NCBI RefSeq assembly: GCF_011745625.1
Contig: NW_027191454.1
Span: 62,001-126,000 of the forward strand
Source: Cladosporium halotolerans
Taxonomy: Eukaryota
Direction: 5' to 3'
Length of the DNA: 64,000 bases
Under the pieces are notes generated by a model, which saw nothing but the letters and a program-made list of their open reading frames with translations, made no database searches and had not been told where the DNA came from. The translations under genes were made by a program, and so were the position numbers. This document shows positions 14,343 to 51,145 of the stretch, in pieces (position 1 is the stretch's first letter; every line of letters begins with the position of its first letter).

Positions 14343-14881
14343 GACAGGTTGGATGTCGGTGTAGAGGTCCAAGTGGTAATTCGAAGGGGGGAAGGGTGTT
14401 ATGGGAGCCGCTGCCAAGGCTCAAAGGTGCTGCTCGTGCTACCACATAGTAGTCGAAGAGGTGCGTCGTGATTAGGCGAATGGCGGGCGGCACGCGCTGA
14501 AAGGACGGTGATGAAGCAGCTGCAGTGAGCAAACAAGCAGCTGTTAATGTAAAAGCAAAAAAGTGGTCACGAGGTCGAGTGACAACCCGCGTTCACGTGT
14601 GCAAGAAAGAAATGTCGAAGTGAGTGGGAGATGTTGGACACGGGACGAAGAACGAGGCTGGTCGTAGCGCGTTGCGTTGCTAGATCAGCACTTTGACGCG
14701 GCGAGCGCGTTCAATTCCAAACGTTCCGCCATCGTCATTCGACCGCAGTCCCGAGCCGCCGCTAGCGCGTCTGGCTGCCCGCAAGAACTTCAACCTCACC
14801 CAGGCGCTTGAGCACAGCAGTCAGCACCCAATCAATAATTACCAGCCCGCGCGCCCATCTTGCCACGCGAAACAACTGACA

Positions 14882-15889: not shown

Positions 15890-17359
15890 TCACTTCTGCG
15901 CAGCATCGAGCAGACCCTGCAAGTTGATCGACTTAGGCCTCTCGATCGGCAGACCCAGCGCGCGATCCCAGACCAGCTGAGCAAGCGGGCCGAGACCTCT
16001 GCTCACACCGAAAGTTGCAGTGTAGTAGAGCGTCTCCTTGAAACCGTAGTGGTGGAACAGTACGCCAGAGCTAGAGTCCACGTTGGGGTAGGGGTTCTTG
16101 GTCTTGCCGTGCTCGGTCAGGACGCCGGGCGCGATCTCGCTGTTCTTCTTGACGAGCTGGAAGACCGGATCGGCGGCGATCTCGGGGCGCGCAGTCGCGA
16201 AGTCCATGAGGGCCTCGAAGCGAGGGTCGGGCTTGCGCAGCACGGCGTGGCCATAGCCGGGGATGACGCGGCCGGATTTGAGCGTCGACCACAGGTAGTC
16301 CTTGACGTCTTGCTCGGAGAATTTGGTGCCGACGTGCTCCTGCATCTGCAGGATCCAGCGGAGCACCTCTTGCGCGGCGAGGCCGTGCAGAGGGCCAGCG
16401 AGACCCTGAAGGCCAGCGGAGTAGGACAGGAAGGGATCGCTGAGGGCAGAGCCGACCAAGTGCGTAGCGTGCGCACTCACGTTGCCGCCCTCGTGGTCGC
16501 CGTGGAGGGCGAGGTAGAGGCGCAGCAGGTCCTGGAAGCCCTCGTTCTCCTTGCCACCCTTGCCGAGCATCGCGGCGAAGTTGTACGACCAGTCCTGGTT
16601 GACGTCGATCTCAGCTGGCAGTGCTCCGCCTCCGCGGTAAGCGTTCTGGTAGATCTTGGCAGCAATGGTGGGGAGCTTTGCGAGAAGGCTCATACAATCG
16701 TCGAAAGTCGGCTCCCAGTAATCGGCCTTGTTCAGTCCCTGCTCGTACTTTTTCGCGAACACCGACTCGTGGTTCAAGGCACTGACTGCGCAAGCGAACT
16801 GTGTCATGGGGTGAAGATCCTTGGGGAAGTTGTCGAGCATCTTCTCAACATAGGCAGGAATCTGGCCCTGCTCTGCCCACTGCTTGCTGAGTGCGCGAAC
16901 TTGGTTGGTGCTGGGGACTTGGCCGGTGAGCAGAAGCCAGAACATAGATTCCGGCAGCATCTCGGTACCAGAAGTGCCCTTGGGGAGCTCCTTCTGGCAG
17001 TCCTTGATTGTGCGGCCGTGGAAGCGGATGCCCTCGTCGGCGTCCAGCACCGAGCCCTCCCAGACCATGGCTTTCAGGCCACGCATGCCTCCGAGGGTGT
17101 TCTCGATCTTAACCTCGCCAATTGATTTGGAGGACTGTGCCTTGACCTTCTTGAGCAGCTCACGCTTCTCCGGAATCACCGACTTGAGGGTCTCCTTGAG
17201 ATCAGGCTCGGCGGTGGCATAGCTGCGAGAGGCATTGAAGATGGGCGTGGCATTGCGGAGCTGCAAGTCTGTTAGTAGAACACTTCGATACCAATCATGA
17301 ATCGCCCTTACCTTGGAAGCTCTCACAGCCCTCGTTGCGGTTCTCGCCGACAGCGACAT
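15890..17359 (-). CDS. mcsA: Mitochondrial 2-methylcitrate synthase (citrate synthase family); intron 17261-17311
   Basis: Citrate-synthase motifs DHEGGNVSAH, GYGHAVLRKPDPR and PNVD; YATAEPDLK and GTEMLPE segments match fungal McsA rather than Cit1; Arg-rich presequence; divergent from methylisocitrate lyase. Confidence 0.85.
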   Translation of the reverse strand: MSLSARTATRAVRASKVRAIHDWYRSVLLTDLQLRNATPIFNASRSYATAEPDLKETLKSVIPEKRELLKKVKAQSSKSIGEVKIENTLGGMRGLKAMVWEGSVLDADEGIRFHGRTIKDCQKELPKGTSGTEMLPESMFWLLLTGQVPSTNQVRALSKQWAEQGQIPAYVEKMLDNFPKDLHPMTQFACAVSALNHESVFAKKYEQGLNKADYWEPTFDDCMSLLAKLPTIAAKIYQNAYRGGGALPAEIDVNQDWSYNFAAMLGKGGKENEGFQDLLRLYLALHGDHEGGNVSAHATHLVGSALSDPFLSYSAGLQGLAGPLHGLAAQEVLRWILQMQEHVGTKFSEQDVKDYLWSTLKSGRVIPGYGHAVLRKPDPRFEALMDFATARPEIAADPVFQLVKKNSEIAPGVLTEHGKTKNPYPNVDSSSGVLFHHYGFKETLYYTATFGVSRGLGPLAQLVWDRALGLPIERPKSINLQGLLDAAQK

Positions 17360-17869
17360 TGTCAAGGCGGTGCTTCTTCGTCTGTAAAGTGTCGATACGG
17401 GAACAAGCAGAGAGACGCGACGAACTTATGAAGTTTCGAGTGGACGAGAAGACACAAGCGGTCAATGGCCGATACGTGGGTCGCTAGGACGTGCAGGGGG
17501 AACAAAAGTTGAGCTCAGCAACTGCTTGTGCATGATTCCGCCCACCCAGGTGGATTGCTTGGACCGAGACATCGATTGCCTCGGTAGCTCCAGAGCTCGG
17601 CTTAGGAATGACGCGGGTGGCCGCTGGAGCTGGAGACAAAAGTTGGGGTTCTCCGCTCTCGCAACGACGGCGACGACGCTTGGACATGCGCGGACATAGA
17701 CGGGTGTGAGCGACCCAGATGCCAGCGCCGAATAAATTATAAGCCTCTTCCCTTAGACCGAACTCACTCATACTCGGCTAGGACGCTGTCAGCATACACA
17801 ATTGTCCGTTGTTGCTGTGGCATGGGAAGGTAACTCGACATACCCACCACAGCCCTTCTTTGCGACACC
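17360..17869. promoter_or_regulatory. Putative bidirectional promoter of the methylcitrate-cycle gene pair
   Basis: 510-bp gap between head-to-head start codons of two genes from one pathway; AT-rich element AATAAATTATAA near 17731-17742. Confidence 0.55.
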
Positions 17870-19713
17870 ATGTTTCGATCCGCCTCACGGGCATTGCGCC
17901 AACAGCGTCGCTCGCTATACAAGCCAAGAGCGATCCAATCCGCGATTCGACCTCTGTCATACGGTGCAGCTCATATGTCGGGCTCCCTCACGCCCGTAGA
18001 ACCGCCTCTCCCGGCTACGCAACCCACCGACTCTTTCCACCTTCTTTCGACCGAAGAGAAAGCCGCTGCAGAAGACGATATTTTCAATGAACAAGTCAAG
18101 CAAGTCAAGGATTGGTGGGCAAGTCCAAGATATGAGGGCATCAAGCGTCCGTACAGCGCGGAGACGGTGGTGAGCAAACGCGGCACACTGCAGCAGGTGT
18201 ACCCCTCCAGCCTGATGGCCAGGAAACTGTTCAATCTGCTTGAGAAAAGGGCGAAGGAAGGAAAGCCCGTACACACAAGTAGGTCTGCGGGTTGGGTACG
18301 AACACGGCACATTTGCTTACATGCTCGATCGCAGTGGGAGCCATTGATCCCGTTCAGATGACCCAACAAGCAGCACACCAAGAAATTCTCTACGTATCTG
18401 GCTGGGCTTGCTCTTCAGTCCTCACTTCGACTAACGAGGTCTCGCCCGACTTTGGAGACTACCCATACAACACTGTGCCGAACCAGGTTCAAAGATTGTT
18501 CAAAGCACAGCAGCTGCACGACAGGCGACACTTTGACCAGAGAAGAGCAATGAGCGCGGACCAAAAGAAGCAGACTCCGTACGTCGACTACTTGCGACCG
18601 ATTGTAGCGGATGGTGATACGGGTCACGGTGGATTGAGCGCCGTGATGAAGCTGGCAAAGCTTTTCGCGGAGAACGGTGCCGCAGGTGTTCATTTCGAAG
18701 ACCAGCTTCACGGTGGTAAGAAGTGCGGCCATTTGGCCGGCAAGGTCCTGGTCCCTGTTGGCGAGCACATCAACCGCCTGAACGCCACGCGCTTCCAGTG
18801 GGATCTTATGGGCTGCGAGAACCTCGTGATTGCCCGCACTGACTCGGAAAGTGGCAAGCTGCTCTCCTCGGCAATTGACGCTCGCGACCACGAGTACATC
18901 CTGGGTATCACAGAAGAAGCGGAGCCGCTTGCAGAGACTCTGCAGACCATGGAAATGCAAGGCGCGTCGGGCGCCGAAGTGGACGCCTTCGAGGCCGAAT
19001 GGGTGAAGAAGCACAAGCTCGTCACCTTCGACGAAGCCGCAGAAGCTCACATCAAGGCCGCCGGCAAGGACGCCGGCGCATACCTCTCCGAAATGCAAAA
19101 GAACCGCAACACCCCCCTCCACCGCCGCCGCAAACTCGCGGCCGAAATCGCCGGCAGCCCCGTCACCTTCAGCTGGGACATCCCGCGGACGCGCGAGGGC
19201 TTCTACCACTACCGCGCGGGCCTGCCGGCCGCGACGAAGCGTGCGATCGAGTTCGCGCCCTTCGCCGACCTGCTCTGGCTCGAGACGGCGGACCCGTCCG
19301 TCAAGAAGGCGGCGGGCTTCGCGGGCGAGATCCGCGCCGCGTGCCCTGGCAAGAAGCTGGTGTACAACCTGTCGCCGTCCTTCAATTGGTCCGGCCACGG
19401 CTTCACGGACACCGACCTGAAGAACTTCATCTGGGACCTGGCGACTCACGGCTTCGTGCTGCAGCTCATCAGCCTGGCGGGCCTGCACAGCACGGCTACT
19501 ATCACCAACGAGCTGGCTAAGGCGTACAAGACTGATGGCATGAAGGCTTACGTTGATCTTGTGCAGAGGAGGGAGAAGGAGCTGGGCTGCGATGTTCTTA
19601 CGCATCAGAAGTGGAGCGGCGCGGGCTACATGGATGGCATCATTGGCGCGATCCAGGCTGGTAGCTCGGGCAGCAAGAGCATGGGAGAGGGCAACACGGA
19701 GGGTAGCTTCTAG
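17870..19713 (+). CDS. mclA: Mitochondrial 2-methylisocitrate lyase (isocitrate lyase family); exons 17870-18278 and 18335-19713
   Basis: [13 protein letters not shown] active-site motif (ICL proper typically has KKCGHM), [17 protein letters not shown]; mitochondrial-type N-terminus; intron removal restores HTMGAIDP. Confidence 0.88.
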
Positions 19714-25422: not shown

Positions 25423-28134
<2,712 letters not shown>

Positions 28135-44291: not shown

Positions 44292-44952
44292 AAAATCGGT
44301 TTTGATCGTCTAGAAGATAAGGGAGCACGTCAGAAGGCTTTTTTTCCTCGGAGATCAGCCGTACCCAACGATGATCAATGGTGCTGGCTGAAGTGGCCCA
44401 GCTGTGATAGACGCTCTCGTCTAAGGGTAGGGCGGTAGGCTCCTCCTGGGCTGCTGTGAACTGTAAACTGGGGGTGGTAAGGTTACGAGCCATGGTGACC
44501 CAGCGACCTCTGAGAGCGCCAAGGCCGCATGGGAGCATGTCGACTGAGGCTGCGGTTAGGTCGAGCTGGCGGCCCTCCGGGGCTTCAGACCTGTATTCCA
44601 AAGGAATAAGGTCGGCATAGGCCTGGCGGCCCTGTTGCACCGCGGCGTTGTTGTTCCCAAATCTTATAGGAGATGGTAGCACTTCAAGCTCGATTTGAAT
44701 CACGGAGAGGCTCGCAGCTTCCCCTCGTGCCTGGCTCTCTCTGTGGCGAACATCACATCCCCGAATCCTATAGGAGATGGTAGCACTTCAAAATCGAACT
44801 AGATTACGGAGAGGCGGTCGCGGCGTTGTTGTTGTCGCACTTTAGATATAGGGTTTGGAAGACTACGACGCGTCCTAGTATACGTTAGGCTCTCCGGATA
44901 AAAATTTGGGGTTGATAGTCTATGACAGAAGGTAGTACGTCCAAAGTCATTT
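44237..44952. repeat. Nested degenerate direct repeats: about 105-bp copies at 44237-44345 and 44854-44952; about 52-bp copies at 44660-44711 and 44764-44815
   Basis: Shared TTTGGAAGACTAYGACGCGT...AGGCTCTCCG..TAAAAA..TTGAT.GTCTA and AATCYTATAGGAGATGGTAGCACTTCAA...ACGGAGAGGC blocks. Confidence 0.8.
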
Positions 44953-45068
44953 TGTCGGGGGGATAGGGATATTCAGAGAAACACAGAAACGTTGTAATGC
45001 ACTATAGAAGAACTAGAAAATCATAGCATGGTCGTGAAGACACTTGCTTCACCTCGAACAAGAGCCGC

Positions 45069-48000
45069 TTACAAAGGCTTGCCGCCAATGAAGTCACTCC
45101 ACCTCCTGACCTCGTTGGGGATGCCGTCAGGCTTAGGCAGCTTCTCGCTCATACACTGAGCGGAGAGGACGGCAGTCTTGGGCTCCATGAAGAGCGGCAC
45201 ACCGAAGTCGACGGCGTTGCGGCGCATAACGTAGTCCTCGTCGACCATGCTGCTGGCGCGACGCTTGGCCAGGTTGAAAGCGCCACGGATGTCGTACTTC
45301 TCGAAGACCTCACGCAGGGCGCGCTTGTCCTGCTTGGGGAACTCGATGACCTCGACGTTGACGGAGCTGTCCTTGCTGGACTGCTCGAGGTGCTCCTTGA
45401 TCTCGCTGTTGGCGGCGTAGAGCTTGTAGCCGAGAGGGTTCAGGTAGTCGACAATCTTGGCAAGGTCGCCAGTAGCGGTGTCACCGCCGAAGAGAAGACC
45501 CTCACCAGGCTGGGGAAGACGGAAGTTCATGGTGCTCTGCATGCCAGCCCAGTAGGCCTCGACGAGGTCCTTGCCGAAGCAAGCCATTTCACCGGTAGAA
45601 GACATCTCGACACCGAGGTAGGGGTCGGCACCAGCGAGACGAGTCCAGGCGAACTGAGGGACCTTGACGGCGAGATAGTCACGGTCGACCTTCATCAGGT
45701 CAACCGGCTCAGGGACGTTGGTATCGGTGATGGCGCGGGTTGCGACGTCGATGAAGTTGGTGCCCAGAACCTTGGAGGAGAAGGGGAAAGAGCGAGAAGC
45801 ACGGAGGTTGCATTCGATGACCTTGAGAAGGCTCTCACCGCCCTCAGGGTTGTCGGCGTTGATGATCTGCATGTTGAAGGGACCGGTGATGTTCCAGGCC
45901 TTAGCGACCTTCTCAGCAATCTCCTTGACACGGTTGACGGTAGCGGCGGGCAGGTTGGCGGGCGGCAGCACAAGGGAGGCATCGCCGGAGTGAACACCAG
46001 CGTTCTCAATGTGCTCACTGACGGCGTGGACAAGCAGCTTGCCGTGAGAAGCAACAGCGTCAACGTCGATTTCACGAGCACCCTCAATGTATTGAGTGAT
46101 AACCACAGGGTGGTCAGGCGAGACGTTGGAGGCGGCCAAAAGCTTGTCCTTGAGCTCCGCCTCAGACCAGATAACGGTCATGGCGGCACCGGACAGGACA
46201 TAGGACGGGCGAACAAGGACGGGGTAGCCAACGCTCTCAGCAAACTTCTTAGCATCCTCGTAAGAAGTAAGCTCCTTCCAGGCGGGCTGGTCAACACCGA
46301 TAGAGTCCAGAATCGAAGAGAACTTGTGCCTGTCCTCAGCCTTGTCGATATCTTGAGGGTCAGTACCGAGAACCTTCGCCTTGCCAGTCTCCTGGAGCTT
46401 AAGAGCGATGTTCTGAGGCAGCTGGCCGCCGACAGAAACGACAACACCAGAGCTGGTCTCCAGCTCGTAGATGTCCATGACACGCTCGTAGCTGAGCTCT
46501 TCGAAGTAGAGGCGATCAGGGAAGTCATGGTCAGTTGAGGTGGTCTCTGGGTTGTAGCTAATTTGGCTGTTAGCATGGTTCTGGATGTATAGAGGTGGTA
46601 GAAATGGATGAGGTGCGAAAGGGGGGTTCTCGGCGGGCCGGGGGCGGTTTCTGAGCTCAAAGCCGACGATACCGCCACAAAACGCGATTTTTTCGAGCGG
46701 GATTGACCAGCCACAAGGGCAGGACATCTCACTGACCGATCGACGTGTTCTGTGACGGGTACCGAAGGTATGAGCTCAGGAAGCGAGAGCCTTCAGACTT
46801 CCCAGCGGCGGCGCGGCGTCGTCTCAGTGACGCACATGCACGCAATCGAACGACGACCGATGGCAGCACGTCCAATTGCAGCACTATATGTGTAAAGAGA
46901 TCAATAATCGCGCGCAGACATCGCAGTGGCCGAAAGGTGGTCTCTCGAACGCATGCCGCTGGTAGTACGTCTGGCTCGGGCATAACGTGGGTGAAGTCTG
47001 AGCCGGGCTGCGCCGAAGAATCCCCGTGCGCAGAACACACGCATTCGCGCGGCTGCTGATGGTAGGACGTCGAGATGCAAAACAACAGAAATAGACTTAC
47101 TTCTGTAATGGATTATTAGCAGATGTTCAAATGAAGATGCAAAAAAGTGAGCGACGGAAGAACTTACAATGACAACGGTCTTCTTGCCAAGCTCCTTCAA
47201 GCTGAGCGTAGCGTTGACAGCGCACCAATCGAACTCGACAGAAGAGCCAATGCGGTAGACACCAGATCCAAGAACGATGATACCGTGATCGTTGAACTCA
47301 ATATCGTGGCTGGAAGCGTTATAGGTCGTGTACAGGTAGTTGGTGTCGGCGGGGAACTCGGCGGCGAGGGTGTCGATCTTCTTGACCCAAGGGCGGATGC
47401 CAAAGTTCTTGCGGCGGGCGCGGACCTCATCTTCGGTGCTGTTGACGGCGTTGGCGATCTGCCTGTCGGAGAAACCGAGCTTCTTGGACTTGAGCATGAG
47501 CTCCTTCTTGACGCCGTAGAGCGAGCCGATGTTCTGGAGTTCGTGGGTGCAGTCGACGATGTTTTGGATCTTGTAGAGGAACCACTTGTCGATCTTGCTC
47601 AAGTCGTGGACCTTGTCGACGGAGTAACCTTCGTGAAGCATGGCCTGGCCAACAGCGAGCCAGCGGCGGTCGGTGGGGTTCCTGAGCACGTCGTCGATGT
47701 CGTCAAAGTGGTCTCCCTGGAGACCGGCGAACTTGGGGTCAACCATGCGAATAGCCTTCTGGAAAGATTCCTCGAAAGTACGACCGATAGCCATAACCTC
47801 ACCGATGGACTTCATAGCGGAACCGATGTGGCGGTCAACGTTCTGGAACTTGCTCAGATCCCAACGCGGCATCTTGGTGACGATGTAATCAAGAGAGGGT
47901 TCGAAGTTGGCGGTAGTCGTGCGGGTGACAGCGTTGGGAAGCTCAGGAAGAGTGTGTCCCAGACCGATCTTTGCAGCGGTATAAGCCAGAGGGTAGCCGG

Positions 48001-49183
48001 TAGCCTTGGAAGCGAGAGCGGAAGAACGAGAGAGACGAGCGTTGACCTCAATGACACGGTAGTCAAGACCATCCGGAGCCAGAGCGTATTGAACGTTGCA
48101 TTCTCCGACAACACCAAGGTGACGAATAATCTTGATAGCGGCAGTCCGGAGCATGTGGTATTCCTCATCGCTGAAGGTCTGAGAAGGCGAAACGACGATA
48201 CTGTCACCAGTGTGAACGCCGAGAGGGTCGAAGTTTTCCATGTTGCAGACAGTGATACAGTTATCAGCGGCGTCGCGGACGACCTCATATTCGGCCTCCT
48301 TCCAGCCCTTGAGAGACTTTTCGACGAGAATTTGCGGGGACAGGGTCAGAGAACGGGCAGACAGGTTGCGAAGCTCCTCGGGGTTCTCAGCAAAACCACT
48401 GCCGAGACCACCGAGAGCGTAAGCAGCGCGGACGATAATCGGGTAACCAACGGAGTCGGCGGCGGCGAGCGCCTCGTCGACTGTGTTGACAGCGATACTC
48501 TCGGCGATCGGAATGTCGATCTCCTTCAGAGCCTGGGCGAACAAGTCACGGTCCTCACTGACCTCGAGAGTCCTGATGCTCGTACCAAGAACCTTGACGC
48601 CGTAGCGATCGAAGATGCCCATCTTGTTCATTTGCACACCCAAGTTGAGGGCAGTCTGGCCACCGAAGGAGAGGAAAATGCCATCGGGGCGCTCCTTCTC
48701 GATCACGTAGGTGACGTATTCGGGGGTGACAGGGAGGTAGTAGACTTCGTCGGCGAGAACGTGTGCGGTTTGAATGGTTGCGATGTTGGGGTTGATGAGG
48801 ACAGACTTGACGCCGGCCTCCTTGAGGGCCTTCAGCGCCTGGGAGCCGGAGTAATCGAACTCGCCGGCCTGTCCAATAGAGAGACCACCAGAGCCAATGA
48901 CGAGGACCTTCTTGACATCAACGAGGTCCTGCGCACCAGAAATGGCACCACTCTCGAGGTATGCTTTCGCATTGGGAGCGGTCTCTGTCTGGCTGGCGCA
49001 GCTCCTGGCCGACCTGGTAAAGGCCCTAATGTTCTTGGGAGCAGCCTTGACCTGCTTCTGCTGCTTAACGCATCGTGGGGCCTGAGAGACGAAGGTACGG
49101 CGGGCAATGCGAGGAGCAGCTTGGCGGGCTTGGTGGAACAACTCCTGCTGCAGCTGGCGAACCAGCTTGCCGCTAAGAGCCAT
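45069..49183 (-). CDS. CPA2: Arginine-specific carbamoyl-phosphate synthetase large subunit (CPA2/arg-3), mitochondrial; exons 49183-47168, 47102-47101 (2-nt micro-exon), 46557-45069; 1168 aa
   Basis: [87 protein letters not shown]; mitochondrial presequence; no GATase/ATCase domains, so not Ura2; the micro-exon restores KTVVINYNPET. Confidence 0.95.
46558..47100 (-). other. Unusually long (543 nt) structured spliceosomal intron in CPA2 with four GAYGTNCTRCC repeats
   Basis: GTAAGT donor at 47100, GCTAAC branch site and TAG acceptor at 46558; long complementary segments and four motif copies (see findings). Confidence 0.85.
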
Positions 49184-49235
49184 GGTTGTTTGTGTTTTTC
49201 AGGTAATTCGGGTGGGTGCAGCGGCAGTGGTCTAG

Positions 49236-49392
49236 TTAATTGACCTGGGCCTTCCACAGGTGGTCGGAGATGTAGTCTACACGCGCATCGAATTAGCCAA
49301 TGCGCCGGCAGCGGGACGAAAGCTCCTGGACCGACCTCGGGAGCGAGCTAGAGCATACCTTGAGAAGTGGTTTTGGTGGGCGCAAAAGTCAT
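49236..49392 (-). CDS. uORF encoding an arginine attenuator peptide (AAP), 24 aa MTFAPTKTTSQDYISDHLWKAQVN; exons 49392-49359 and 49276-49236
   Basis: Removing an 82-nt intron (49277-49358; GTATGC..GCTAAT..TAG) yields the core TSQDYISDHLWKA, matching N. crassa TSQDYLSDHLWRA and yeast TCQDYISDHIWK, with D12 and W19 in register; stop lies 52 nt before the CPA2 ATG. Confidence 0.93.
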
Positions 49393-51145
49393 GAAGCCCA
49401 ATGGGTGCCCTGTCGAGGCCAGTACTGCCGGTATGTGGTGACAAGGTGCAGGACAATGGGTGAGGTGGGTGACTGGTACAAATGCAAAAATCCGAGCGAG
49501 CTATGCGCGGGCCCGAGCGCTCACACCGCCGGCGCTAGCCCATACCGTGCAGCAGGAGTCAGAGCTCCTCCGCCCTCGCCGCCCTCGCGCGCTCTTATCA
49601 GTACCGAGAAAACGCCATTATCGTGCGCCGCGCGCCGTTCAGTATGACTGTGGTTTTCTTTTCCGTCTGCCGCACGCTGCTCCCAGCGTCGCGGGCCTCG
49701 CGGCCCTGATGTCTTAGTTGCAGATCGCTACAAACTCATGGGGGCCCATTGGGGTTCTCTCCGGTACCGGCGCCAGTCCTTTTACGTCTGGTATTGTTGC
49801 AACTGTCTTTCCATCACCTGCTATGATTACACATTCAGAAGACGAGCGCCCGCCAATGGTTGTAACTTCACTTTGAAGGTAGTCATCAAGACCGTGAAGA
49901 TATCTCTTCTTCACTTGACGGCAATCTGCGCCTGAGACGCATGCCACTCGTCGGTGTGTGAAGCGCACGCTGAGGCAGTAGTGTGCAGGAGGCTTCCTAT
50001 CATGTGTGCTTGTGCAGGGTATTGAAGCCCTGTAGCTAAGTAGAGCAGGCTTGATGCCATTGTCGGCACCCGAGGGTCTTCCCTTGAAGCTTCACATTTT
50101 CATACTTTGATGGACGGACAGCAGATTGTCCAAGGGCCACCTCTCGCTGATGCAGGCACCCCTAGTGTCATTGAGGGAAAGACCTCGCGTCATTAAATAA
50201 TAAAGTAACATCCGCCTTCTCAGACGATCCGTGCCGACGCAAGGACTTCTATGATAAGCAGCGGGCGGATTATAGTGATGCATCTTCAAGGACGGTTGGT
50301 ACCTCCCTCGCCGGATCAACGGCGGGGAGGCCAGAATACAGTTGAAGATGTTGAGGTGAGATGATGATGAGACGAAAGAATGTCTCAGGAAGTACTCAGT
50401 CTGCGTATAGAGTCTGCGAATTATTTCACATGTCATGGAGCCATGGTGTTGTATCATGTGTATCGCCGCGCAGTTCTGTTCATAAGGTACCTCCTCACAA
50501 GCGAAAGGGTTGGACCCTAAGGCCAATCCAAGGTGAGGTGCGAATCCTGACGCGCCAAGTCTGCTGTTACGCAAGCTCGAGGCCAGCATGCGATTTGGTT
50601 GTTTATATTCGCTTGTGCAGAACGCGATCATGTCTGCCGAAGAGTAGATGTTCATGAAACTCGCGCGATAGTAATAGCGTTCAAGACGTCTGAGTAAGAA
50701 TACAATTGTAACAAAAACCTCCCGCAATCGTAAACCGTACAGCAATCACGACCTGAGCCAGCCCTGCGCTGAATGAGGGCCGGCGGTAGCTGCAGGGGTC
50801 TCCAGTCTACCGCACCGCACCGTCTCCTGGAGCCATCTTCGCCTCGTACACCTTGCACTTTCACGAACCCAGCAGCAACCCTATCCGCATACCGCGCCCG
50901 CCCGATTAGATGCATCTACGGTAGCCGGTGGCCATCTCCAATTGGGACCCAACAACGTCGCTCCTTTAGCGGTGCAGCCACCGCCCACACCAACGCCGTT
51001 CCTCCAACGCAAGCCAAACCTCGCGCTACCACCGGACCCTCCGCGACACTCCAAGACTGTACAACACACGCAATAGCTGAGCGCTACCCCATTTAATAGG
51101 CGGCCTGGCCGCTGGACACGATACACGGAGCGCAACGCCGCAACC

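What the first reader, a model, noticed from the sequence alone, without database searches (positions are those of the whole stretch)
45069..49392. CPA2 locus as a possible multi-layer arginine-responsive post-transcriptional system
One transcript combines a spliced AAP uORF, a frame-critical 2-nt exon and a structured repeat-bearing intron about five times longer than any other intron I called here (others are about 47-110 nt). The fully unspliced RNA also stays open through intron 1 into an Arg-rich tail (760-aa ORF ending at 46901). Inference: translational stalling and regulated unproductive splicing/NMD may jointly set CPS-A large-subunit levels. The components are visible; the coupling is hypothetical.
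Basis: inference. Interest (0 to 1): 0.82.

Follow-up and report, generated by a model that had tools for sequence, protein, structure and literature searches.

The report
Arginine-sensing uORF before CPS large subunit
A Cladosporium-like fungus carries the arginine-sensing leader peptide, so far described only for the small subunit of arginine-specific carbamoyl-phosphate synthetase, in front of the large-subunit gene, which also holds an RNA-confirmed two-nucleotide exon that looks like a by-product of intron turnover and not part of the regulation.

Summary
On the minus strand lies the arginine-specific carbamoyl-phosphate synthetase large subunit (CPA2/arg-3 type, 1168 aa). It has a 24-codon AAP-like uORF split by an 82-nt intron, a 65-nt intron, a 2-nt exon (AA) and a 543-nt intron.

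RNA-derived contigs from three studies show the 82-nt uORF splice and a 608-nt skip (65 + 543, two bases kept). One contig has only the 65-nt intron removed.

The proposed coupling of stalling with regulated splicing is not supported, because the parts do not co-occur. Two relatives (L001 Cladosporium-like, L003 Aureobasidium-like) keep the same spliced uORF but lack the micro-exon and the long intron. A third relative (L002) has a 1.7-kb intron at the site but no uORF.

The junction is an intron-turnover hotspot, and the 760-aa read-through ORF is not frame-conserved between strains.

The more interesting point is that an AAP-type uORF, under peptide-level constraint, sits before the large subunit. 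My literature searches found it described only for the small subunit.

A public model of what is probably the same gene carries 26 spurious residues at the micro-exon.

Arginine-dependent stalling is inferred by homology, not shown.

The parts
49359..49392 (-). uORF exon 1: ATG plus 10 codons plus the first base of codon 12 (Asp)
   Evidence: It lies inside RNA contigs X1 rec 5, X2 rec 18 and X14 rec 11. The ATG has T at -3, a weak context.
49277..49358 (-). uORF intron, 82 nt, GT..AG, phase 1 inside codon 12
   Evidence: A joint 49276/49359 skipping 82 nt appears in 3 of 3 RNA-type runs. L001 (95 nt) and L003 (98 nt) have an intron at the same position.
49236..49276 (-). uORF exon 2: AAP core (DYISDHLWKA...) plus the TAA stop
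   Evidence: This is the only match to the AAP-like motif in six frames of the window.
49184..49235 (-). 52-nt spacer between the uORF stop and the main ATG
   Evidence: The spacer is 54 nt in L001 and 55 nt in L003.
47168..49183 (-). CDS exon 1 (672 aa): presequence-like N-terminus, first pre-ATP-grasp and ATP-grasp domains, oligomerisation domain, start of the second half
   Evidence: Pfam CPSase_L_D1, D2 and D3. Homologs are named arginine-specific large chain / cpa2. The main ATG has A at -3 and G at +4.
47103..47167 (-). Intron 1, 65 nt, phase 0 after Ile; GTAAGT, CTAAT branch site, CAG
   Evidence: X2 record 16 skips exactly 65 nt at 47102/47168.
47101..47102 (-). 2-nt exon AA: the first two bases of the Asn codon in the conserved INYNPET motif
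   Evidence: The frame requires it. The 608-nt skip equals 65 + 543 in 3 runs, and there is a partly spliced intermediate. Asn follows the Ile/Val at this place in 118 of 120 listed homologs, and the motif is intact in 99 of them.
46558..47100 (-). Intron 2, 543 nt, phase 2; GTAAGT, TGCTAAC, TAG; predicted to be unusually structured
   Evidence: z -4.3. No Rfam match. No other copy in the window or in the 80 loci.
45069..46557 (-). Last CDS exon (third base of the Asn codon plus 495 codons plus stop): second ATP-grasp half and C-terminal domain
   Evidence: Contiguous in RNA contigs X1 rec 1 and X2 rec 13.

Best explanation
This is the arginine-specific carbamoyl-phosphate synthetase large-subunit gene (CPA2/arg-3 type) of a Cladosporium-like Dothideomycete. 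Its model matches the C. halotolerans protein XP_069233189.1 at 1167 of 1168 residues.

The mRNA leader carries a true arginine attenuator peptide (AAP) type uORF.

Most likely mechanism, inferred by homology. Scanning ribosomes often pass the weak uORF start and translate the enzyme. When arginine is high, ribosomes that did translate the 24-codon peptide stall at its stop codon. That blocks scanning to the main ATG 52 nt downstream and probably exposes the mRNA to nonsense-mediated decay. In this lineage the large subunit would therefore be arginine-attenuated at translation, as is known for the small subunit elsewhere.

The 2-nt exon and the 543-nt intron are constitutively spliced. They come from lineage-specific intron gain and loss at a hotspot in the INYNPET motif and are not regulatory parts.

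Shown here: the anatomy, the splicing, the conservation of the uORF and the non-conservation of the introns.

Inferred: arginine-dependent stalling and NMD.
For: Gene identity. Pfam CPSase_L_D1/D2/D3 are found in both halves. 120 of 120 listed homologs are CPS large chains, and many are named arginine-specific or cpa2.

uORF.
- It has 24 codons with Asp at position 12. Asp-12 is the residue whose D12N change abolishes the arginine response in the N. crassa AAP (PMC7038982, passages read).
- I translated by eye the N. crassa AAP encoded by primers AAPf/AAPr in that paper's supplement. 13 of 24 positions are identical, and 11 of 13 in positions 9-21.
- The motif occurs once in the window's six frames. 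It occurs in 2 of 80 fetched loci, each time just upstream of the CPA2 start.
- Peptide-level constraint: window against L001 shows 2 codon differences, both synonymous. Window against L003 in codons 11-21 shows 2 differences, both synonymous, one of them a TCC/AGC serine switch. The N-terminal codons 2-10 vary.
- All three uORFs have 24 codons, an intron in the same phase in codon 12, and a 52-55-nt spacer.
- The uORF and the main ORF lie on one RNA contig (X2 rec 18).
- The uORF ATG has a weak context and the main ATG a strong one.

Introns are not part of the system. Searches show different arrangements in every relative examined.
Against: - No arginine-response data of any kind. Stalling is inferred from sequence likeness only.
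- The defining context of known AAPs, the small-subunit gene, is not met.
- I could not examine this organism's small-subunit gene, because no genome is held. Whether the element was copied or moved is therefore open.
- Only two relatives with the uORF were found. Five other fungal-like CPA2 loci lack it (L002, L004, L005, L006, L009). L004 has only about 160 nt upstream of its ATG.
- The long intron's predicted structure (z -4.3) is unexplained by a plain 'junk intron' reading.
Confidence: 0.7

Rival explanations
1. AAP stalling and regulated unproductive splicing (retention of the long intron, then a premature stop and NMD) act together to set large-subunit levels in response to arginine.
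For: An intron-2-retaining, intron-1-spliced RNA exists (X2 rec 16). It would stop one codon after the junction (AAG TAA). The intron is predicted to be structured.
Against: The parts do not co-occur. L001 and L003 have the uORF without the micro-exon or the long intron. L002 has a long intron without the uORF. P0142, 99% identical, reads as lacking intron 2. The retained form was assembled in 1 of 3 RNA-type runs, at about 4% of the spliced contig's depth, which fits ordinary splicing intermediates. No condition-dependent data exist.
Confidence: 0.07
2. Intron 2 is a recently inserted introner-like or other mobile-element-derived intron. It landed two bases downstream of an existing intron and so created the 2-nt exon. 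This adds to the best explanation and does not exclude it.
For: - The intron is long (543 nt against 65 and 82 nt in the same gene) and predicted to be stable (z -4.3). Both traits are described for introner-like elements of Dothideomycetes (PMC3609843, abstract and passages).
- It cannot be aligned to the introns of L001 or L002.
- P0142 reads as a near-identical relative with intron 1 only.
- L002 shows that a mobile-looking insert with an ORF can sit in an intron at this site.
Against: - The defining trait, many near-identical copies in the genome, could not be tested. There are 0 other copies in the 64-kb window and in the 80 loci.
- P0132 and P0144 ('IK' then stop) suggest that an older phase-2 intron at the same place exists in 96% relatives, so intron 2 may be the older of the two.
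- Introner-like elements are reported as about twice the normal intron length, not eight times.
Confidence: 0.25
3. The uORF is a decaying or generic uORF with no arginine-specific function. Its likeness to the AAP is a relic.
For: No functional data. It is absent upstream of CPA2 in 5 of 7 fungal-like relatives.
Against: The core is kept with only synonymous changes across two orders of Dothideomycetidae, while the flanking leader and the uORF N-terminus diverge. Length, intron phase and spacer are also kept.
Confidence: 0.1
4. There is no 2-nt exon. One 608-nt intron is removed at non-canonical sites (GT..TT), giving Ser instead of Asn.
For: The aligner placed the joint at 46559/47168, with 3 letters that fit either side. 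I did not see the letter at 46558 directly.
Against: - X2 rec 16 shows intron 1 removed on its own, exactly at CAG|AA.
- Record 17 has one mismatch confined to 46558-46559, whereas a direct join would give none.
- Both introns have full canonical donor, branch and acceptor sites.
- Asn follows the Ile/Val at this place in 118 of 120 listed homologs.
Confidence: 0.03

Closest known systems
Arginine attenuator peptide (AAP) uORF of N. crassa arg-2 / S. cerevisiae CPA1 (small subunit of Arg-specific CPS)
   Same: It has 24 codons, Asp-12 and the conserved core. 11 of 13 residues at positions 9-21 are identical to the N. crassa peptide encoded by the primers in the supplement of PMC7038982. It sits in the leader of a gene of the same enzyme, has a weak start context and lies a short distance from the main ATG.
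   Different: It precedes the large subunit, not the small one. All passages I read describe the AAP for the small-subunit gene (PMC11550727, PMC7049704, PMC12230235, PMC7038982). It is split by an intron inside the Asp-12 codon. Whether small-subunit AAPs share that intron I could not check, because Hood et al. 2007 is not held. The arginine response is untested.
Ultra-short micro-exons: 1-nt exon of Arabidopsis APC11 (PMC4674806, search listing only) and of Fusarium CYP621A (PMC12940212, abstract and passages read)
   Same: It is a frame-critical exon of one or two bases inside a highly conserved motif, flanked by canonical AG and GT. Gene predictors miss it, and transcript data confirm it.
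   Different: It is two bases long, sits in a primary-metabolism gene, and is lineage-specific. Close relatives place one or two introns at neighbouring positions instead.
Introner-like elements of Dothideomycetes (PMC3609843)
   Same: Intron 2 is longer than normal introns, has stable predicted structure and canonical splice signals, and occurs in the same fungal class.
   Different: Multi-copy status is unknown. Its length far exceeds the reported 'about twice as long'.
Stwintrons (spliceosomal twin introns; PMC9024468, search listing only)
   Same: Two introns in direct contact must be removed in consecutive reactions.
   Different: They are not nested. Neither intron interrupts a splice signal of the other, and each has its own donor, branch site and acceptor.

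Membership tests
AAP-type regulatory uORF | uORF in the 5' leader of the mRNA for the SMALL subunit of Arg-specific CPS | tested here: not met
   The downstream ORF is the large subunit (Pfam; homolog names). No GATase or small-chain domain was found in the 78 window ORFs scanned.
AAP-type regulatory uORF | Short peptide of about 24 residues with Asp-12 and the conserved core | tested here: met
   24 codons with Asp at position 12. 13 of 24 positions are identical to the N. crassa AAP, and 11 of 13 at positions 9-21; I read that peptide from primers AAPf/AAPr. The importance of Asp-12 comes from PMC7038982.
AAP-type regulatory uORF | Conservation at the peptide level, not only the nucleotide level | tested here: met
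   Core codons 11-21, window against L003: 2 differences, both synonymous. Window against L001: 2 differences, both synonymous.
AAP-type regulatory uORF | uORF present on the same mRNA as the main ORF, with leaky-scanning start context | tested here: met
   X2 rec 18 spans the uORF and exon 1. T at -3 for the uORF ATG, against A at -3 and G at +4 for the main ATG. That this context is weak is general knowledge of initiation, not tested here.
AAP-type regulatory uORF | [quoted passage not shown] | not testable with these tools
   Needs toeprinting, cell-free translation or ribosome profiling.
Arg-specific CPS large subunit (CPA2 / arg-3) | Duplicated pre-ATP-grasp and ATP-grasp halves with an oligomerisation domain, free-standing (no fused ATCase, DHOase or GATase) | tested here: met
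   The model has 1168 aa. It matches P0138 at 1167 of 1168 residues and P0121 at 1114 of 1168.
Ultra-short micro-exon | Canonical acceptor upstream and donor downstream, inclusion needed for the frame, and transcript evidence | tested here: met
   The identity of the two retained letters is inferred from mismatch counts, not read directly.
Introner-like element | Many near-identical copies in one genome | not testable with these tools
   No genome is held. There are 0 further copies in the window and in the 80 loci, which is a very weak test.
Introner-like element | Longer than regular introns, with stable predicted secondary structure | tested here: met
   543 nt against 65 and 82 nt; z -4.3.
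Stwintron | An internal intron interrupts a splice signal of an external intron | tested here: not met
   The two introns are adjacent and each is complete. Intron 1 is removed on its own in X2 rec 16.

The most novel reading that the evidence does not exclude
An ancestor of the Dothideomycetidae (the subclass holding Cladosporiales and Dothideales) copied the arginine-sensing AAP leader, intron included, onto the large-subunit gene of CPS-A. In these fungi the large subunit, and perhaps both subunits, would then be throttled by the same nascent-peptide arginine sensor. This would be a natural case of a ribosome-arrest sensor spreading to a second gene of its pathway. My searches found no description of it.
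Probability: 0.45. Interest if true: 0.65.

Novelty: new variant of a known kind. Interest (0 to 1): 0.55.

Why it matters
(1) The AAP is a textbook nascent-peptide sensor, and every passage I read ties it to the small-subunit gene. Finding it conserved in front of the partner subunit in two fungal orders gives an independent natural replicate of the element. That could help define which residues and spacings matter. It also raises a testable question about how subunit stoichiometry is controlled.

(2) The 2-nt exon is among the shortest spliceosomal exons with transcript support. It shows splicing of two introns separated by two bases, with an observed intermediate in which the upstream intron has already gone.

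(3) It has a practical cost. The public model of what is probably the same gene (P0138) has 26 spurious residues in a conserved motif. In addition, 11 of the 120 listed homolog models are disturbed at this motif: residues dropped, extra residues inserted, or different residues in its place. Ten further entries are unspliced or cut-off ORFs that run into an intron or end there.

Tried and rejected
- Whole-genome route. No genome is held for this window. The small-subunit gene and the copy number of intron 2 could therefore not be examined.
- Rfam found no match at E <= 1 in 44400-49800, so there is no known snoRNA or other family in the long intron.
- Tandem duplication as the origin of intron 1 plus AA. 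A global alignment of the two 67-nt segments scored 1.5 against 1.37 +/- 3.3 in 500 shuffles, and 246 shuffles did as well. Rejected.
- The 10-nt repeat shared by the two intron starts (D9) is best read as chance.
- Homology of intron 2 with the introns of L001 and L002: only 9-20-nt matches at E >= 1.6, and tblastx E >= 0.28.
- A 32-nt, 81% match of intron 1 at window 14536-14565 (E 0.009) lies in T-rich sequence with no intron signals. Treated as chance.
- 'Repeat-bearing intron': not found.
- Papers wanted but not held: Hood et al. 2007, PMC7686025, PMC3003393, PMC3434499 and PMC3568992. What they say about intron positions in small-subunit AAP uORFs, or about large-subunit genes, I could not see.
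- One search (AAP plus Dothideomycete names) was too loose to count as a test.
- Cover of the leader by RNA contigs stops at 49428-49445 in three runs. This is only a weak hint of the 5' end.
Full report
WHAT IS THERE

The finding's coordinates (45069-49392) span exactly one minus-strand gene, from the uORF start to the stop codon.

- The two large ORFs carry the duplicated pre-ATP-grasp/ATP-grasp architecture and the oligomerisation domain of the carbamoyl-phosphate synthetase large chain (Pfam).
- All 120 best database relatives are fungal CPS large chains, and many are named arginine-specific or cpa2.
- My spliced model has 1168 residues.
- 1167 of those residues match P0138, an NCBI protein of Cladosporium halotolerans. 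1114 match a C. fusiforme protein.
- The window therefore comes from that species or a very close relative (Dothideomycetes, Cladosporiales).
- No small-subunit gene lies in the window: 78 ORFs were scanned. No whole genome is held.

THE UORF

- A 24-codon uORF starts at 49392. An 82-nt GT..AG intron interrupts it after the first base of codon 12. It ends with TAA at 49238-49236, 52 nt before the main ATG.
- It holds the motif DYISDHLW. That motif class occurs only once in the six frames of the 64-kb window.
- I read the N. crassa AAP from the two primers listed in the supplement of PMC7038982 and translated them by eye. 13 of 24 positions are identical, and 11 of 13 in positions 9-21.
- Position 12 is Asp, the residue whose D12N change abolishes the arginine response (PMC7038982, passages).
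- The uORF ATG has T at -3. The main ATG has A at -3 and G at +4.

RNA EVIDENCE

I laid four coded runs: X15, a DNA-type run identical to the window and possibly its source, and three RNA-type runs from three studies (X1, X2, X14). Only X14 is RNA by its record. X1 and X2 are guessed to be RNA, but their contigs carry spliced joints.

- All three RNA-type runs show a joint that skips the 82-nt uORF intron.
- All three show a joint between 46559 and 47168 that skips 608 nt. That is 65 + 543, so two bases are kept.
- X15 shows no joint.
- X2 also gave a 606-nt contig (record 16, depth 11.8 against 286.7 for the spliced junction contig). In it exactly 65 nt (47103-47167) are removed and intron 2 is retained. 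Intron 1 is therefore a separate intron that can be removed first.
- The two retained letters are best read as AA. Record 14 (46521-46557) has no mismatch. Record 17 (46528-46559) has one, as expected if TT on the plus strand is laid on the genomic CT. I did not see that letter directly, because the mismatch table was truncated.
- The uORF and exon 1 lie on one contig (X2 record 18).

THE PROTEIN AT THE JUNCTION

The micro-exon supplies the first two bases of the Asn codon in the motif I-N-Y-N-P-E-T. In 99 of 120 listed homologs this motif is intact. The other 21 are unspliced or cut-off ORFs or disturbed models.

The NCBI model P0138 has 26 extra residues here. It reads intron 1 as coding and, by my reconstruction from the window sequence, uses an invented 13-nt exon inside intron 2. 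The RNA joints contradict that model.

DO THE PARTS BELONG TOGETHER?

I fetched DNA around relatives from metagenome contigs. 80 loci came back, of which 7 are fungal-like at 74-96% identity. The rest are at about 55-62%.

The AAP motif is found in 2 of the 80 loci, both directly upstream of the CPA2 start.

- L001 is the window's own clade, at 96%.
- L003 has an Aureobasidium protein as its nearest named protein, at 90%. Aureobasidium belongs to Dothideales, in the same subclass Dothideomycetidae.
- Both uORFs have 24 codons, an intron in the same phase in codon 12, and a 54-55-nt spacer.
- Window against L001: 2 codon differences, both synonymous.
- Window against L003: codons 11-21 differ twice, both synonymously, including TCC against AGC for serine. 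Six codons outside that core (codons 2-10 and 22) changed the residue.
- That is the signature of selection on the core peptide.

The motif is absent from five other fungal-like loci:

- L002, whose nearest named protein is from Rhizodiscina, subclass Pleosporomycetidae;
- L004 and L009, which are Leotiomycete-like;
- L005 and L006.

L004 offers only about 160 nt upstream of its ATG.

The introns behave differently.

- L001 has a 194-nt phase-0 intron after the Asn codon and a second intron 25 nt further on. It has no 2-nt exon.
- L003 has one intron of about 57 nt inside the Glu codon of the motif.
- L002 has a 1716-nt intron after Asn, with an embedded ORF.
- L004, L005 and L006 have none.

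Unspliced ORFs from near relatives in the protein collection point to more states. These are inferred from read-through translations only.

- P0142 (664 of 670 aligned positions identical) reads as intron 1 only.
- P0132 and P0144 ('IK' then stop) read as a phase-2 intron only.
- P0125, P0126, P0129 and P0130 read as an intron after N-Y-N-P.
- P0071 reads as two introns flanking a Y-N-P-E-T micro-exon.

The site is therefore an intron-turnover hotspot. The window's 2-nt exon arises because two of the possible intron positions are occupied at once. The uORF, the micro-exon and the long intron do not co-occur, which argues against a coupled system.

THE LONG INTRON

- It has no Rfam match and no tandem repeat.
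- Only weak short repeats were found in it.
- It has no similarity to the introns of L001 or L002, and no second copy in the window or in the loci.
- It is predicted to fold much better than shuffles (z -4.3). Together with its length and the fungal class, that recalls introner-like elements (PMC3609843). Their defining multi-copy state could not be tested.
- In the strain behind X2 the intron is present with 8 substitutions and a 3-nt insertion.

THE 760-AA READ-THROUGH ORF

- It exists, and its 88-residue tail has 13 Arg.
- Near-identical strains read a different frame after the first 29 or so tail residues (P0002, P0141 and P0147 against P0143). The tail is therefore not conserved as coding sequence.
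- With intron 1 removed and intron 2 retained, the frame stops after one codon (AAG TAA).

MECHANISM

The best-supported reading is an AAP-type attenuator acting on the large subunit.

- Leaky scanning past a weak uORF start lets ribosomes reach the main ATG.
- In high arginine, ribosomes that translated the peptide stall at the uORF stop.
- Scanning is then blocked, and the mRNA probably undergoes NMD. These steps are described for CPA1 and arg-2 in PMC11550727 and PMC7049704 (passages).

All of this is inferred by homology. No arginine-response data exist here.

NOVELTY

Literature searches found no paper in the held library that links the AAP, or any uORF, to CPA2, arg-3 or the large subunit. 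The key comparative paper (Hood et al. 2007) and the main AAP reviews are not held, so prior description cannot be excluded.

One-nucleotide exons are in print for Arabidopsis (PMC4674806, search listing) and Fusarium (PMC12940212, abstract and passages). The Fusarium paper also cites 2-5-bp exons in plants, flies and humans. One search found no fungal 2-nt exon.

VERDICT

The coupled-system interpretation is not supported. What remains of interest is an AAP-type uORF conserved before the large subunit in two Dothideomycete orders, and a transcript-supported 2-nt exon that public annotation gets wrong.

Noticed in passing
L002:5624-7336: The intron at the same CPA2 site in a Rhizodiscina/Coniosporium-like relative is 1716 nt long. 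On the gene's strand it holds two ORFs in one frame (263 and 201 aa, stop to stop), separated by a single TGA. The second has two C2H2 zinc fingers (Pfam E 1e-10); the first has no Pfam match. Short direct repeats lie near both intron ends. It looks like a mobile or captured gene inside a spliceosomal intron.
   Followed up: partly
P0138 (NCBI XP_069233189.1), corresponding to window 46558-47167: The public protein model of what is probably this same gene is 1194 aa. It has 26 extra residues inside the conserved INYNPET motif, because the 2-nt exon was not modelled.
   Followed up: yes
P0005, P0006, P0008, P0009, P0035, P0069, P0110; also P0004, P0026, P0040, P0059: Annotated CPA2 models of several Dothideomycetes and one Leotiomycete lack 2-5 residues of Y-N-P-E-T, or insert, replace or drop residues there. 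P0071's unspliced reading shows two introns flanking a micro-exon of about 15 nt. Skipped micro-exons at this motif seem to be a widespread annotation error.
   Followed up: partly
window 25426-28134 (-): A second arginine-pathway gene lies about 17 kb from CPA2. It is an ARG5,6-type fusion (acetylglutamate kinase, NAT domain, N-acetyl-gamma-glutamyl-phosphate reductase). No AAP-like motif lies near it; the window has only one such motif.
   Followed up: partly
window 44641-44833: Just beyond the CPA2 3' end lies a 56-nt direct repeat (84% identical, 44656-44711 and 44760-44815). It is bracketed by an exact 15-nt repeat (44641-44655 and 44819-44833). Its meaning is unknown.
   Followed up: no
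L009:1590-1690: In a Leotiomycete-like relative the frame of the CPA2 start codon reads D-S-S-D-V-L-W-S-T directly before the Met. This is a faint echo of the AAP core, or chance.
   Followed up: no
window 15893-19710: A citrate-synthase-family gene (-) and an isocitrate-lyase-family gene (+) lie head to head. This pairing is typical of methylcitrate-cycle genes; that reading is recalled and not tested.
   Followed up: no
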